Origin: the human T2T-CHM13v2.0 reference genome, Homo sapiens
Assembly (NCBI RefSeq): GCF_009914755.1
Contig: NC_060948.1
DNA length: 64,000 nucleotides
Direction: 5' to 3' (one strand)
The first letter of the stretch is position 1; every line of letters starts with the position of its first letter. Below are positions 1 through 64,000 of the stretch, one piece after another. The translations under genes were made by a program, and so were the position numbers. Under the pieces are notes generated by a model, which saw nothing but the letters and a program-made list of their open reading frames with translations, was not told the origin of the DNA and did not search any database.

Positions 1-3000
1 CTCTTCAGAATTAGAGATTATGGGAAAGGTTGAGCCCATGGATGTTAACTGGCATATATTAAAGGATAAGGACATAACTCCCCAATGGGAGGATGAGACC
101 TTGGTTTGGTGTAGCAGGTTTCCTTCTATTGACCCATGAATTTTAAAAGAGGTCTCAGGTAGGAATTTGGGGTTATAACACATATAAGTCTAGCCATTTC
201 CTGGGTCACAGACTGAGTAGTTTCGTTGTGAGTACAAGTTTCTAGGTGGGTCCCTGTACACTTTTAATAAGTGTGATATAACAGGGTTTTGGTTATGGTG
301 CTCCCTGACCATATTGTTAGTGCAGTGTGGGCACTCTTCTCTGGTCTCCTTTTCTGAAACAAATAAGGGGAGTATTATAGTTAGGAGGAAAAGAAGTGGG
401 CTTAGCTTTCCTATTGCCTGGAATAGGAAATAAGTAAAGAGTAACATGTTTATACCAGGGAGGAAAAGAAGAAGTTTTTACACAGGGGAGGAGGTTGAGC
501 AAAGTGAGAGAACAATAGTAAAACAATGATTGGATTTAAGATTTTTATCACTATTTTATTATATTTTACTCCAGCTTCAAACGTACGTACAGTAGTCAGC
601 TTCCAGGATGACTACAGCAGGGCTGTTGACTCCTCAAGTTTTAGCTGAGAACAGACTAGTCAGCTTTCGGAATGACCAGAGTAGGGCTTCATCATTTCTC
701 AGGGCAAATAGGTCATAGGATTAGCCAGCTCAGATGGTCTGGGTCATGTTTGCTGGTCCACTTGTCTTGGGCTGCAAGTTTTAGTTGACTGTGGTGGATC
801 CAACGCACAATTTCTGCAATGTTAACAGCAGTGGAAGTGGACAAGGTTGCAGGATGGGGCCCATCCCATATGGGTTCTAGAGTGGTTGGATTTTATTTCT
901 GACCTACACAGAGTCCCCAGGTCTAAAGTGGTGTGCTGTGTTTGTTGGGCTTATGGACAATCTTTCCCATACCCAGCCATGGACCTCTTGCATGGCTCTC
1001 TTTAACGCCTGCCTTTGCCTTCTTAAAGTTAATTCCCTAGTTTGCAAAGTTCACCCCTAATTTGAGCTATGATTGGGGATGGCCAGTGGAAAATAGTCCC
1101 TGAACTGTCTCGGTCACAAATTTCAGTCCATTTTCTGACCCTAGAGTTAGAGGCATTCTCAATCTGGGGATATCGTCTCTTAACAGTACTTCTGTTACTT
1201 CTCATGATTTCTCTGTTAGGGTGGGGAAAGCCTCAACTCATCCTGAAAAGGTACAGAAAATCACCAGTATGTACTTACAGCCCACTGATTGGGGCATCTC
1301 AGTGAAGTTTCTAAGAAGGTTTTCACAGGGTGTGGCTCCCATTTCCTGAATTCCCAGGGGCCAAGTGGGCCCTTGTCATGGAATGTTCTGGGCACAAGTT
1401 AGACATTGTTTGCAGACAGATCAAGTGATGACAGTGAGCTGTGGCACATAGAAATGGTGTCCTAGCAGTGTTTTCAGTGACATTTTTCCCATGTGGGTTC
1501 CTTGATGGAATTGTTTTACAAATTTTGGGGCCAGCATTTCGTGGTTGGCTAGCCTCCTATTGGAGAATTTTCACCGTCCCTTTTTATATATTTTCCAGAC
1601 CCTTGGGAAAAGCAGAGCTTCTCATTTGGAGGTAACTTGAAACCTCTGAGAGGTGCATATTTGGGAGGAGAGTCAGCTATGGCTGTCTGTCTGTCTATGG
1701 GTAGTCATTGCTGCCCCTTTTGCATACCTGTCTACCTTTTTGTTCCTTTTGGCCTCCAGTGATCCTGGCTTTTGGTGCCCCTTGCAGTGCATAGCAGCTG
1801 TCTTCTTTGGAGTCCATACAGCATCTAAGAGTTGCAGAATTTTTTCTTTGTACTTTTTTTTCTTTTTGGCCCACCACAGTTAAGAATCCTTTTTCTTTAT
1901 ATATAGCCCCATTATCAGGCAGCGTGGCAAAAGTATACTTGGAATCAGTATAAACATTGGCCATTTTACGTTTTGTCAGCAGAACGCTCTCATTAGGGCT
2001 ATTAGCTCTGCCTTTTGGGCTGATGTTCTGGTGGGCTGAGCTTCTACCACTGAATCTAATGTTATCACTGCATACCCAGTTTCACGGACCCCTTTCAGTA
2101 TATAGTATTTACCATCTGGGTCCCAGAGGGGTTGCTCTATAAGGTCTTTCTGGCTTGAGAATACATCATCTACTGTTTCCACAGAGTCATGAAGGAGGAC
2201 CCCTGGTTTGACTGGGACTAAGGTAGCCAGGTTAAGGGTGTTTATTATTTCCAAAGTTATGTCGGGATTTTTGCATATGAGCCCCTGGTACTGAGTCACT
2301 CTTGGATTTGATAACTAATAGTGCGCTGTCTAATCCATTAAAGTTAGAACTGACTGTGGTATACCCAGATGGTCAGCTGTTGTCTTAGAGCTAGTTTTCT
2401 ATCTTGTTGTTCCAATAGGGTGGTGTCAGCTAGTGCCCTAAGGCAAGGAGGCTATGCTAGGGCCAAGGAGTTCAATTGTGTGGATAAGTACATCACCGGG
2501 CGAATTCATGATTTCACAACTTGGGTCAGGACACCTATAGCCAATCCCTTTTATTCATGGACATGTGGAAAGAAAGGCTTACTTATATTTGGCAGTCCTA
2601 TGGCTTGGGCCTGTGTTAAGGCTTCTTTGGCTTGTTTAAACACCTTCTTTTCCTGGACAGCCTCTCAAAGGAGGGGTTTCCTTTCCCCTCTCTTTGTGCC
2701 TTTATATAAGGGCTTGGCAATTAGTGAGAAATTTGGGACCCAGATACAGCAGAACCCTGCATTCCCCAAGAATTTTCCCATTTGGCACTGGGTGGTTTGA
2801 GTTGAGAGTGCATAAAGACATGGCTTTTGCTCACTGCTGAGCTGGTGTTCCCATTGGCTTACTATGAAGTCCAGATATTTGACACTTTCTTGGCAAATTT
2901 GGCCTTCTTTCTGAATACGTTATAACCAGTTTTCCATAAAGGAGATGGAGGAAGTCTTGGATTCCTTGGTATCTGCCCCCTGGGGTTGGGGCTGCTAGGA

Positions 3001-56700: not shown

Positions 56701-59487
56701 TTTTCAAAATATCAATTCTGTAGTGCCATAAATAATTGTATTAAATGAATCGCTGGTACAAAGATCACATTCTGGTTCATAAGTCCTGTCTGGATGACTT
56801 AGAAATATTTAACTGTTAATATGAATATGGAAATCCAGCAGACTGAATCATTAAGGAGGAAAAAGGACCCGTTTTATGCATCAGACAGATTTCAGTAGCT
56901 TATATTGTCTACCTACAGGAGCTGGACACAATGATTCTTGCATATTTTGGATTCAAATGCATTTTTATTATTATTTTACCCCTGAAGCTAGGTTTGGAAA
57001 GACAACATTTGTTACTTAAGACAACTTAGAAAAAAAAAAAAACTATTTCTAAGTTATCACATTGAAAGGGTTGTTATGAGACCATCACATTATTTTATTT
57101 GCCAAATATGAATATGTTTCCTCAGTAATGTACTTTTGATTGTTATTGTTTTTAGAGAAATAAGATACTGTTCTCAATAAAATAAAGAACATGCTCAAAT
57201 AACGAACTAATAAAGGGATAAAAATAGTCAATTAACATTGAGACGCTTGTTCACTGTCACTAGTAATCAAATAAATACAATGCAAATAAATCATTGAGTT
57301 ATTATTTCAAACTATCGAATTTGCAAACATTTAAAAGAAAAAGAGCTGGCAAATTCATAACCTCCTTTAAAAAGGGAATACTTAAATGAATTATAGTAGA
57401 GTGATTCAAGTACATTATAAAGAATAGATGGCAGTGAGGAAATAATCATAATAAATACATAAAAATCTGATGTATAATTGGTGATCTGCAAGAAAATGTG
57501 GGGAAAAGGTAGTAGCATTTACTTCTGAATGGTTGTACAATTTTTAGAGTTTTAAAAACTCCATTTCTGAATTTTCTGCAATAATTATTACTGTTATTAT
57601 CAGTAAAAATGAGAAAACAAAAATATGTGTGTGTGCACTCATACATGAATGCACACCTACTTCTTCTAGAGTTGTTTGGTTCTTAGTTACAGTAAAACTA
57701 TAATCTACCACAAAATGACAGCAGCATGCTTTACTGAGCTGCAGTTGTGCATATGGCCTGTTTATTCTTTTTTTTTTTTTTTTGGTCAACCTGTACTTCT
57801 TGTTTGGCTTTCTGTATTATAGATATTTGATATTATAAATATAAATATTATAGATGTTTGCAAGTTACATGTTTCTAATTGCCCAGCTACAAATATCAGT
57901 GGTGGTATATGCACTATCTACTACACTCATTCGGGACATAAATTTATATAACAGAAAGGCTACTGTTTTTGTAATTTAAATACACAGGGCTATTTTATTC
58001 TATGGGAGCAAGCAGAATTTAATTTAAACTGGCGTTTTTTCTGTAGACCTGGGAGTAGAATTTTTTTTTTTTTTTGAGATGGAGTCTTGCTCTTAATTTT
58101 ACCCAGGGATGCACTATTTTATTATTTTATAGTGAATAATATCTGACAAGCATGCATTATATTGCTACCTGCTGAGTCATGAATACATGAATACTACCAA
58201 GTAAATAGCTCAAATTTATAAATTTTAAAGCAATTTTTATTTTTGAATTGATCTTGTGTTTTTGATAGAATATACCTAAAAGGCTTAAAGTGCATGTAAC
58301 TGAGCAATTTTCTTTTATGTAATGATGCAAAGTATATGAATAGTAAGTAATCTGACTCAGCAAAGAGACAAGAGTTCATACCCAAGAGATTCGTGCTTTG
58401 AGGTTTGGAAATAGCTCTTGTTATGTATTTTTGATCTTGGGTGGGCTATTAGCTATAAGTCTTGGTGTCTTCATCCATAAAATGGTATTAATAGCACCTG
58501 CCTTTTCTGCTTTTCAGGTGTAGAGACTTGAAAAGTAAATAATAATACGTGGAAGTTCTCTACCGCCTTCTGTGCCCAGCTTGACCACATATTCAGGTTT
58601 TTGATAATTAGCACAATTAAAGTGAACCAAGGGGGAACAAGTTGCTGATTTAATTTGGGGTTACATTGCCTTCACCCTGTGTCATAGGCTTACTTAGTCC
58701 AAGCATTCCTTAAGTATGCGTGTCTATTTAAGAGATTAGCTGAGGGTGGCTGATATTCAATCTCAATTTATCTCAGCTTTGGGAAAACCATCCCTGCGTG
58801 TACCCTATCTGTGCTTGTGAGTCCACAGTGGGATTTTGTATAAAGAACAGCATGTTTATATTTACAAGATTGAAACTGTAGGTGAAGTTCATAAACATCT
58901 GAAATAATTCTTTTTTCCTGAAATATTTCCTGCTCTTCTGGCATTCTTCTTTGTAATATTCAGTTTCACATATACTTTCCTAGTTACATTGCAAACTCCA
59001 TGGGGTCAAAGTGTGTGCTAGTTTTGCATACTACTGAGTCTGTTGTGTCCATTACAGTGCTTGACACATAGCAGATGCTCAATAATTAAAACAGCAATTA
59101 TACACACACACATATATAAATATATATATATTTATATAAAATATATAAAAACAATGGACTGACAGACTCATTAAGTCCCACCACCCACCTCCTATTTCCT
59201 AGCATAGTGTCAGGTACTTATTAGGTGAACAACAGATAGTGACTGTATCTTATTTATATTATTTAGGATGGGCCTCTAGGAGTTCAGTAACTTATTGTTT
59301 TAGAGTAAATCAAAATATTAATCCTTACATGACACTTAAATGCATGAATACAGTATTGTGCTTAAGTAGGATACTGTCCTCAATAATTTAAAAATACATG
59401 CACCCATTTTTTTTCCATGCATTGAAAATGACTAGTCCAGAGATGAATATGAAGGCAGTGATAAAAGTCTGGGAGCAATATCGTCTA

Positions 59488-61949: not shown

Positions 61950-62225
61950 AGCCTTTGAAGCCACAGTGGCTCTTGCCTGTTATCTCAGTATTTTGGGAAA
62001 CTGAGACAGGGCCTCACTTGAGGCCAGGAATTCCAGAGGAGGCTGGCAAATAGAGTGAGATGCTGTCTCTAGAAAAAATAAATAAAATTTAAAAATTAGC
62101 TGCTTGTTTTGCAGTGTGCCTACAGCCCTAGCTACTTGGGAGGCTGAGGTGAAAGAATTGTTTGAACCAGGGAGTTTGATGTTGCTGTAACTTATGATCT
62201 TGTCACTTCACCCCAGCCTGTCCAG
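61950..62225 (+). mobile_element. Alu (AluJ-like), 3' end and tail missing
   Basis: Diverged dimer ending at ccccagcctg with no poly-A. Confidence 0.85.
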
Positions 62226-62239
62226 AGGATTATCTAATC

Positions 62240-64000
62240 ATACTGTGGACTATTGCCAAATCTGCAGCAGTGAAACTCTGGACACATTCTGTGTCTGGTA
62301 AAGTCACACTTTGGAACCAAGAAGAATTTCCAGCCTTACTTCCCTTGACAGAGCCTATCGCTAAGACAGTCACAACATAGATCCAGGATAGAATTCCAAC
62401 AATAAATCCCTGAGCAAAAACTATAGCTGAAACTGCCATACCATGGATCCTCGATGAAATGCCACCAACAAATCCCTGGAAAAAATACAGCCTGAATATT
62501 TAGCAGTAAATACCTGGCACTATCTGAATTTAACCCAGTCTCATTGTGGATCTTGGCTTATTTGTCAGTAGGAAACTACTCTACACAGTTCCATACTGAA
62601 ACAATAACACTGTGAACCCACGTTGAGTCTCCAGCAATACTTTCCTGGAAACAGTTGGGAACTGATATAATCACATTAGGGACCCATGCTGAATCACTAG
62701 TGATGAATTCATGGATATATTCTTCTATATGTGATACGGTCACAACACCTATCCAGGCTGAATCAGTTATTAAATCACTGGACATACTCTGAAACTGATA
62801 TACTCACAACATGGATTCTGGCTGAAACTCTAGGATTAAGTCCCTGGGCACGTGATATGTTCCTACCATGGACCCAGGCTGAAAGTCCAGCAGTATCTTG
62901 GATTCAACCATGGATTCTGGGTAGAATGCCAGCAATGAATCCCTGGAGAGAGGCTACAGCTGACATTGTCCTACCCTGGAACCAGGCTGAATTTATGTAG
63001 AAGGAAATGCCTGGACACCGTCTGAAACTTATACAATCACAAAGAGGATCCTGAGTGATTCTCCAGCACTAAATTCATGGACATGGGCAATAGCTGATGC
63101 AGACCAGCTGTGGACCAAACCTGAATTTCCAGCAGTAAATCCCTGGACAAAGTCTGTAGTTGATAGTACTATACCATGGATACAGGATGAGTCTCCAGCA
63201 ATAAATCCATGGACACAGTACGTATCTTATATGATCAAACCATGAGCCCAAAATGACTCTTCAGCAGTAAATCTCTGTACACTACCTGAATCTGATACCA
63301 TTATCCTGTGGACACAAGCTGAGTCTCCAACAGTAAATCCGTTCACAGAGGCTGGAACTTCCACAGTCACACCATGGGCCCAGGCTGTATCTCCAGCAGT
63401 AATTCCACGGACACAGCCTATACTTTCCACAGTCGTACCTTGGACCCAGGTTGAATGTCCATCAGTAAATACCTGGAGAACGTCCATAGCTGATGCCATC
63501 ACACTGTGGATAGGGGCTGAATTAACCGCAGGATATCAATGGATACTGCCTTGGGCTGCTACTGTCACACTGTGGTCACAGTCTGAATCTCCAGCAGGAA
63601 ATCTTTGGACACAGTCTGTGTATGACACAGACACACCATGGCCTCAGGCTGAATCTCCAGCAGTAGTTTGCTGGACAGAACATGTAGCTGATACACACCG
63701 TGGACTCAGTTTGAATTTTTAACAGTAAAGCCTTGGATCCAATCTGTATCTGATACGCTCATACCATGGACCCAGGCTGAGTCTTCAGCACTAAAGCATT
63801 TGACACAGGCAATAGCTTATACAATCAAGCTGTGGAACCAAGTCAAATCACCTGCCATAAATCTCTGGAAACAATATGAAACGAATATGTTCACATGGTG
63901 TACTGAGGTTGAATCTCCAAAAGTAAAGGAGGGGACACATCCTATACCTGCTACAGTTATACCACTGAACCAAGCTGAATCTGTAGGAGTAAATCCCTCC
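62240..64000 (+). pseudogene. Decayed coding tandem array of 66-bp (22-aa) Trp-rich repeats; probable giant-exon remnant (PRSSLY-like, tentative); continues off the right edge
   Basis: The SPA-codon motif recurs at 63192, 63258, 63324, 63390, 63456, 63522, 63588 and 63654. One plus frame reads LWTQAESPTVNPFTEAGTSTVTPWAQAVSPAVIPRTQPILSTVVPWTQVECPSVNTW...; stops fall at Trp positions. Confidence 0.75.

What the first reader, a model, noticed from the sequence alone, without database searches (positions are those of the whole stretch)
62240..64000. Hidden decayed coding array: 66-bp / 22-aa Trp-rich repeat, a probable giant-exon gene remnant (PRSSLY-like)
Seen: about 26 diverged 66-bp units, each made of two related 33-bp halves (consensus PWTQAESPAVN + PWTQSVADTVT), with exact 66-bp spacing over 63192-63654. 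A stop-free plus frame of ~158 codons (63246-63722) has no early start codon, so the ORF track misses it. Units differ a lot in DNA yet keep W every 11 residues, and several stops sit at Trp codons (acatagatcc ~62375, ccctgagc ~62408, ctgtgaaccc ~62610, ccatgagccc ~63240). That fits a once-translated repeat rather than a satellite. Established: PRSSLY is a eutherian Y-linked, testis-expressed gene with a very large exon and a trypsin-like domain. Inference: given the Y-type neighbourhood, this is a dead copy of such a gene. I cannot confirm the identity from the sequence alone.
Basis: partly seen in the sequence, partly recalled or inferred. Interest (0 to 1): 0.85.

Follow-up and report, generated by a model that had tools for sequence, protein, structure and literature searches.

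The report
Dead PRSSLY gene copy on Y
The repeat is the start of a decayed, unannotated copy of PRSSLY, a testis gene that other mammals keep intact on the Y chromosome and that is already reported to survive in humans only as pseudogenes.

Summary
Window 62232-64000 is the 5' end of a diverged 66-bp (22-codon) tandem array. Self-identity at lag 66 is 0.506 against a background of 0.256. The array runs past the window end to about 67150, giving 73 units.

It is the repeat part of the giant exon of a PRSSLY pseudogene. The pseudogene spans 62232-75695 on the + strand. Intact sheep and bat proteins (1823, 1513 and 1109 aa) align colinearly over the whole stretch. Their Trp-every-11 repeat region falls on the array. 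Their two trypsin-like domains fall on eight downstream exon remnants at 57-89% identity. Pfam Trypsin scores above its cut-off twice.

Hughes et al. 2022 (PMC9178871) already report human PRSSLY pseudogene loci. Their human model maps to a paralogue at Y 10.24 Mb that is 84% identical to this array.

This copy is dead. It is 5'-truncated, and it carries stops and frameshifts in both the array and the domain exons.

Related sequence lies at 16 or more places on the Y and nowhere else in the genome. Four of those copies are identical.

The array units show no third-position bias. That fits the published Ka/Ks near 1 for this exon. Novelty is low. The repeat architecture itself seems undescribed.

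The parts
61962..62220 (+). Alu-like element that abuts the 5' breakpoint of the pseudogene
   Evidence: It matches Alu-like stretches in loci L005 and L006 at 67-68% identity. I recognised the Alu sequence by eye; it was not checked against a repeat library.
62232..64000 (+). In-window part of the PRSSLY pseudogene's giant exon: 27 full 66-bp (22-codon) units plus one unit cut by the window end. This is the finding itself. The pseudogene continues outside the window to 75695 (see evidence).
   Evidence: In the window: lag-66 self-identity is 0.506 against 0.256. Homology to paralogues starts sharply at 62232 or 62238. tblastn matches to the sheep and bat repeat regions are.

Parts beyond the window, all on the + strand, in window numbering:
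- Array continues over 64001-67150.
- Alu insertion with poly-A and a 10-base target duplication at 65558-65870.
- Non-periodic end of the giant exon at 67151 to about 68922.
- First trypsin-like domain exons at 69597-69773, 70326-70585 (one frameshift), about 70731-70868, and about 71001-71318 (two stops).
- Second trypsin-like domain exons at 72739-72882, 73247-73498, 74758-74877 (one stop) and 75429-75695.
63246..63719 (+). Longest stop-free frame wholly inside the window part (158 codons). It is opened by a Trp-to-TGA stop at 63243 and closed by TAA at 63720.
   Evidence: It matches no Pfam family.
63692..64000 (+). Start of a 214-codon stop-free frame (63692-64333) that follows a frameshift near 63700 and runs off the window end
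   Evidence: The frame is identical in all four 100% copies. It matches no Pfam family.

Best explanation
The array is the 5' portion of an unannotated, non-functional paralogue of the PRSSLY pseudogene family on the human Y. It occupies window 62232-75695 on the + strand, which is T2T chrY:25296232-25309695.

In mammals that keep the gene, PRSSLY encodes a very large testis protein. Most of it comes from one giant exon, which is a tandem array of 11-residue units anchored by Trp and paired into 22-residue units. Two trypsin-like domains follow the array.

In this copy the front of the giant exon has been lost at a breakpoint beside an Alu. A second Alu has inserted into the array. The frame is broken by Trp-to-stop changes and frameshifts. 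The domain exons carry at least one frameshift and three stops.

The copy is one of four identical copies in Y ampliconic sequence, and one of at least 16 PRSSLY-related places on the Y. It most likely does nothing beyond low-level transcription.

What is shown: the repeat, its extent, colinearity with intact orthologues, the lesions and the copy number. What is inferred: the order of events (amplification at about the time constraint was lost), and the lack of function.
For: (1): the 94-aa exon remnant at 70296-70577 finds 11 mammalian proteins at E 3.8e-26 to 2.2e-8. The top eight are 71-79% identical, and the sheep, Rhinolophus and Rousettus proteins are 1823, 1513 and 1109 aa long.

(2): those proteins align colinearly from 62246 to 75695. 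Their repeat region falls on the array and their two domains fall on eight exon remnants.

(3): in the sheep protein 45 of 66 gaps between successive Trp are exactly 11 residues. Lag-22 identity is 0.259 against a mean of 0.07. Units such as TQAESPAVNTWREAMPFTDPSW share their first half with the human consensus.

(4): two Pfam Trypsin matches score above the curated cut-off on the same strand.

(5): Hughes et al. 2022 describe the massive exon and the human pseudogene loci. [quoted passage not shown]

(6): a 27-base motif from their human model maps once in the genome, at Y 10243937-10243963 (-), in a paralogue 84% identical to the window array.

(7): every match to the array and to exon D1-b lies on contig 24 (the Y). 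None lies on X or an autosome.

(8): the stops and frameshifts are listed there.
Against: - No third-position excess appears between units. Mean entropy by codon position is 1.250 / 1.119 / 1.113 over the 49 of 73 units with at most 2 gaps and 2 inserted bases. The permutation p is 0.76. The array alone therefore gives no signature of past selection on the protein.
- The database proteins carry automatic names ('serine protease 55-like', 'uncharacterized protein'), and none is named PRSSLY. I equated them with PRSSLY by comparing, by eye, their domain sequence with the bull and lemur sequences shown.
- The array was not compared with a repeat library such as Dfam or Repbase.
- Expression of this particular copy was not tested.
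- The full 5398-nt human model was not available; only its first 400 nt were shown.
Confidence: 0.93

Rival explanations
1. A non-coding Y-specific minisatellite or satellite that never encoded protein, and that lies next to protease exons only by chance.
For: There is no third-position bias between units. Both the + frame and one - frame are fairly open, because they share wobble columns. The sequence is confined to the Y and is multi-copy.
Against: The array is colinear with the translated repeat region of intact 1109-1823-aa orthologues. It is followed, in order and on the same strand, by the rest of their sequence. In-register stops are rare, 4 in 569 codons, and all 4 fall on Trp codons. 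The same array-then-domain order recurs in diverged paralogues.
Confidence: 0.02
2. A transcribed pseudogene with a function as RNA, for example a testis non-coding RNA kept in four identical copies by the amplicons.
For: Hughes et al. report low-level transcription of the human pseudogene model, with testis TPM of 0.13-0.17. Four copies are 100% identical over every stretch compared.
Against: The reported TPM is very low, and one brain sample shows a similar value (0.23). Identity between amplicon copies is expected from Y arm-to-arm gene conversion whatever the function (recalled knowledge, not tested here). Paralogues diverge at dN/dS of 0.58-1.1 and carry copy-specific lesions.
Confidence: 0.04
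3. Part of the locus still encodes a protein, for example through the 231-, 214- or 158-codon open frames.
For: Three long open frames are present, and the four copies are identical.
Against: The frames are fragments of one broken reading frame and have no early start codon. Hughes et al. found no ORF in any human transcript. The downstream domain exons are broken.
Confidence: 0.01

Closest known systems
PRSSLY (protease, serine-like, Y-linked), as described by Hughes et al. 2022, BMC Biol 20:133 (PMC9178871)
   Same: It is Y-linked. It has one massive exon with no recognised domain, followed by trypsin-like domain exons. The domain exons are 57-89% identical to intact orthologues.
   Different: It is broken by stops, frameshifts, a 5' truncation and an Alu insertion. 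It is multi-copy, whereas the paper says intact PRSSLY is single-copy where assemblies are good.
The published 'Human (model)' PRSSLY pseudogene (Additional file 9 of PMC9178871), which maps to T2T Y about 10.235-10.245 Mb, minus strand
   Same: It shows the same order of array, first domain and second domain. The array is 84% identical.
   Different: It is a different locus and a diverged paralogue, with domain dS of 0.34. Its lesions are largely different. The model starts about 230 nt further 5' than the point where the window copy is cut off; this was read by eye.
PRSS55 and other autosomal PRSS genes
   Same: They share the trypsin fold. Hughes et al. name PRSS55 as the closest paralogue (abstract).
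   Different: The best non-Y human matches to the second-domain His exon are only 38-52% identical over about 33 residues. Exon D1-b has no non-Y match at E <= 0.001. Autosomal PRSS genes are not known to me to have a giant repeat exon (recalled).

Membership tests
PRSSLY gene or pseudogene | Y-linked in eutherians, with no X or autosomal copy in human | tested here: met
   All 49 DNA matches, and all 63 and 75 protein matches of the array, lie on contig 24. All 15 matches of exon D1-b are also on contig 24.
PRSSLY gene or pseudogene | A massive single exon upstream of the protease-like domain | tested here: met
   62232 to about 68922 (6.7 kb including a 313-bp Alu) is colinear with sheep residues 1-1272, without an intron-sized break.
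PRSSLY gene or pseudogene | Trypsin-like domain exons downstream on the same strand | tested here: met
   PF00089 scores 24.3 and 37.8 bits against a cut-off of 20.6. Eight exon remnants are mapped.
PRSSLY gene or pseudogene | Orthology to PRSSLY rather than to another PRSS gene | tested here: met
   The top eight large mammalian proteins are 71-79% identical. I compared them by eye with the bull and lemur PRSSLY domain text. The published human model's motif maps to a paralogue. No tree against PRSS55 was built.
PRSSLY gene or pseudogene | An intact reading frame (needed to call it a gene rather than a pseudogene) | tested here: not met
   There are 16 in-register stops, and 14 units with frameshifting indels, in the array. 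The domain exons carry 1 frameshift and 3 stops.
PRSSLY gene or pseudogene | Testis-specific expression | not testable with these tools
   Only the published TPM values for the human model at another locus were seen.
Non-coding tandem satellite or minisatellite | No orthologous translated sequence; units kept alike by array turnover | tested here: not met
   The orthologous proteins translate the same repeat. Each of the 73 units matches the consensus at only 17-57 of 66 positions, and TRF reports nothing.

The most novel reading that the evidence does not exclude
The 'domain-less' giant exon of PRSSLY is a tandem array of an 11-residue, Trp-anchored unit paired into 22-mers. Its first half (PWTQAESPAVN) is the same in an intact sheep protein and in the human relics. 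This suggests the repeat motif has been maintained across Boreoeutheria, even though the exon as a whole evolves at Ka/Ks near 1. In the lineage leading to humans the gene did not simply die in place. It was copied to at least 16 Y sites, some together with RBMY-like sequence, at about the time constraint was lost. I found neither point in the text or supplements of Hughes et al. 2022 that I could see. No paper in the held library carries both 'PRSSLY' and 'tandem repeat'.
Probability: 0.45. Interest if true: 0.4.

Novelty: already known. Interest (0 to 1): 0.22.

Why it matters
The finding fills an annotation gap. RefSeq lists nothing between OFD1P10Y and RBMY2CP, yet a 13.5-kb PRSSLY pseudogene lies there, and identical copies lie at three other Y sites.

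PRSSLY is described as the only ancestral X-Y gene known to be lost from the X and kept on the Y. Its human remains therefore bear on when and how primates lost it. This work adds three things:
- a census of at least 16 relic sites on the Y;
- near-neutral divergence between the copies;
- a description of the Trp-anchored repeat that makes up the giant exon.

None of this changes the published picture.

Tried and rejected
- Tandem Repeats Finder at minimum score 30 found no array here. I used lag autocorrelation and my own wrap-around alignment instead.
I do not count this against a coding origin, because the paper reports Ka/Ks near 1 for this exon in intact genes.
- A genome-wide Pfam Trypsin search was swamped by autosomal protease genes and listed no Y match among the 150 rows shown.
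- Pfam on 900-base tiles read through stops as X recovered only the two His-type exons. The other six exons needed the orthologous proteins.
- Pfam on the three long array frames gave nothing above any cut-off.
- A shared inactivating lesion that would date the gene's death before the duplications was not found in the domain exons. The lesions are mostly copy-specific. The exception is a stop after TKP that is shared with the 8.55-Mb copy.
- I considered folding the repeat and did not run it. A single-sequence model of a diverged repeat would not have been informative.

Full report
**The observation**

The window is T2T-CHM13 chrY:25234001-25298000. Over 62240-64000 the sequence matches itself at lag 66 in 50.6% of positions. 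At lag 132 the figure is 44.9% and at lag 33 it is 41.0%. The mean over lags 1-150 is 25.6% (sd 3.6%). Two nearby control stretches show nothing above 33.5%. Tandem Repeats Finder reports no array there even at minimum score 30, because the units are too diverged.

I aligned the region to a cyclic 66-column profile. This gave 73 units between 62201 and 67150. Twenty-eight of them start between 62246 and 63965. The consensus is TGGACCCAGGCTGAATCTCCAGCAGTAAATCCC TGGACACAGCCTGTAGCTGATACAGTCACACCA, which reads WTQAESPAVNP WTQPVADTVTP.

- Units from 63177 to 63638 are spaced at exactly 66 bp.
- The open frame is 63246-63719, 158 codons.
- Read in register, 62246-64030 holds only 4 stops in 569 codons.

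- The array starts abruptly at 62232.
- It continues well past the window end.

**Extent and surroundings**

I fetched the flanking sequence.
- The lag-66 signal runs to about 65500.
- It is interrupted by an Alu at 65558-65870, which has a poly-A tail and a 10-base target duplication.
- It resumes as more diverged 11-residue PWTQ-type repeats to about 67150.
- Long open frames of 214 codons (63692-64333) and 231 codons (66405-67097) lie in the same reading direction.

On the 5' side, homology to the paralogous copies begins sharply at 62232 or 62238. This is directly after an Alu-like element at 61962-62220. In the paralogues the array continues further upstream. So this copy is 5'-truncated.

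**What it is**

*Literature.* Hughes et al. 2022 (PMC9178871) make three relevant statements:
- PRSSLY encodes a massive protein, and in many species most of the ORF lies in one exon of more than 10 kb.
[quoted passage not shown] For this paper I read the abstract and outline; term passages; sections 5, 7 and 12; and part 1 of Additional file 2. I also ran term searches of all nine supplements. [quoted passage not shown]

Their Additional file 9 gives a 'Human (model)' of 5398 nt, of which the first 400 nt were shown to me. By eye, about 170 nt of that text are clearly homologous to window 62238-62420. A 27-base motif from it occurs once in the genome, at Y 10243937-10243963 on the minus strand. 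That site lies inside a paralogue whose array is 84% identical to the window's. The published model is therefore a different copy of the same family.

*Protease exons.* Stop-to-stop frames downstream of the array gave two Pfam Trypsin matches above the curated cut-off on the + strand. They lie at 69549-69773 (24.3 bits) and 72733-72882 (37.8 bits, E 2.3e-9).

*Orthologues.* The 94-aa frame at 70296-70577 finds 11 mammalian proteins at E 3.8e-26 to 2.2e-8. The top eight are 71-79% identical. They include a sheep protein of 1823 aa and bat proteins of 1513 and 1109 aa. Their names are automatic and none says PRSSLY. However, their domain sequence matches, by eye, the bull and lemur PRSSLY domain text printed.

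tblastn of these proteins against 62001-77000 gives a colinear series:

| Part of the protein | Window coordinates | Lesions seen |
|---|---|---|
| Repeat region | 62246-67240 | see 'State of the copy' |
| Linker at the end of the giant exon | to about 68922 | not listed |
| Domain 1, exon 1 | 69597-69773 | none |
| Domain 1, exon 2 | 70326-70585 | one frameshift |
| Domain 1, exon 3 | about 70731-70868 | none |
| Domain 1, exon 4 | about 71001-71318 | two stops |
| Domain 2, exon 1 | 72739-72882 | none |
| Domain 2, exon 2 | 73247-73498 | none |
| Domain 2, exon 3 | 74758-74877 | one stop |
| Domain 2, exon 4 | 75429-75695 | none; reaches the orthologues' C-terminus |

The finding is thus the first 1.77 kb of a 13.5-kb PRSSLY pseudogene.

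**The repeat is translated in intact orthologues**

In the sheep protein 45 of 66 gaps between successive Trp residues are exactly 11. Identity at lag 22 is 0.259 against a mean of 0.07. The two bat proteins show the same pattern.

Sheep units such as TQAESPAVNTWREAMPFTDPSW have the same first half as the human consensus. The bull upstream-ORF text shows, by eye, the same 66-bp period. The paper's main text contains 'tandem' and 'repetitive' zero times. No paper in the held library has both 'PRSSLY' and 'tandem repeat'. So this architecture seems not to have been described. I could not see the paper's figures.

**The test that failed**

Over the 49 of 73 units with at most 2 gaps and 2 inserted bases, mean column entropy by codon position is 1.250, 1.119 and 1.113. 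The permutation p is 0.76. The in-window subset (20 units) and the two halves of the array give p values of 0.36 to 0.83.

There is no such bias. The array on its own therefore does not show past selection on the protein, and the + frame shares its wobble columns with one open minus-strand frame. Intact PRSSLY genes have Ka/Ks near 1 in this exon. For that reason the negative result does not argue against the identification, which rests on homology.

**State of the copy**

In the array there are 16 in-register stops in 1456 codons. Ten of them are at the two Trp slots. Fourteen units have indels that shift the frame. TGG is the codon most easily turned into a stop by a single transition, so this is the pattern expected from neutral decay of an open frame. 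In the domain exons there are one frameshift and three stops. Together with the 5' truncation and the Alu insertion, this copy is dead.

**The family on the Y**

DNA and protein searches of the whole genome place array or domain matches at 16 sites on contig 24 and none elsewhere. The sites are at about 5.915, 5.97, 6.17, 7.35, 8.445, 8.55, 9.956, 10.15, 10.24, 22.32, 22.79, 23.027, 23.230, 23.46, 25.30 (this copy) and 26.92 Mb.

The copies at 22.79, 23.46, 25.30 and 26.92 Mb are 100% identical over every stretch compared. The order of array, first domain and second domain is kept in the diverged copies.

Between eight copies, dN/dS over 248-532 domain codons ranges from 0.58 to 1.10. dS is 0.16-0.36, apart from one recent pair at 0.027. 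The published values for the domain in intact genes are 0.001-0.31.

The lesions are mostly specific to each copy. This fits copies that diverged largely without constraint. Alignment through tblastn may bias these values, and I did not test whether they differ from 1.

**Comparison with the known**

This is a member of the PRSSLY pseudogene family already reported for the human Y. It differs from the intact gene in being broken and in being multi-copy. It differs from the published human model in locus and in sequence. RefSeq lists no feature here, according to the gene table supplied with the finding.

**Verdict**

Novelty is low, because the kind is known. The parts that may be new are the repeat architecture, the copy census and the missing annotation of this copy.

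Not done:
- comparison with a repeat library;
- a tree against PRSS55;
- any expression test;
- alignment to the full published sequences.

Noticed in passing
window 80079-82078 (outside the window; locus L046 3079-5078) and other Y sites: RBMY-like sequence (the start of RBMY2CP) lies 4.4-4.5 kb downstream of the PRSSLY relic, on the same strand, at five sites: the four identical copies and the 8.55-Mb copy. At the 7.35- and 9.956-Mb copies it lies 17-18 kb downstream. This suggests the two were copied together in some amplification events.
   Followed up: partly
proteins P0003-P0007; window 69597-71318 (outside the window): The intact orthologues have two tandem trypsin-like domains. In a HMMER alignment to factor XI, the first domain has Arg in place of the catalytic His (TTARC) and Leu in place of the catalytic Ser (GDLGAP). 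The second domain keeps His and Asp, but its Ser region did not align. The protein may therefore be largely or wholly a pseudoprotease. The human relic carries the same TARC and GDLGAP.
   Followed up: partly
window 59001-59266 and locus L006 1241-1500 (Y 8.547 Mb): Window 59001-59266 is 90.6% identical to the sequence directly 5' of the 8.547-Mb copy's array. That array begins at the homologue of window 63120. The two copies therefore share flanking sequence but have different internal deletions or breakpoints.
   Followed up: no
Y 5.915 Mb (L043) and Y 10.24 Mb (L038): These two copies are nearly identical in the domain exons (dS 0.027) and lie in opposite orientation, as expected for arms of a large inverted repeat. 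The 5.915-Mb copy lacks the array and the end of the giant exon.
   Followed up: no
window about 69900-70000 (outside the window; locus L036 about 2900-3000): A short purine-rich simple repeat, which translates as ERERER in all three frames, sits in the intron between the first two exons of domain 1. It produced spurious weak Pfam matches to Atrophin-1 and DUF3915.
   Followed up: no
window 65558-65870 (outside the window; locus L011 3558-3870): A full Alu in + orientation, with a long poly-A tail and a direct duplication of GAAGCTAAGA on both sides, has inserted into the repeat array.
   Followed up: yes
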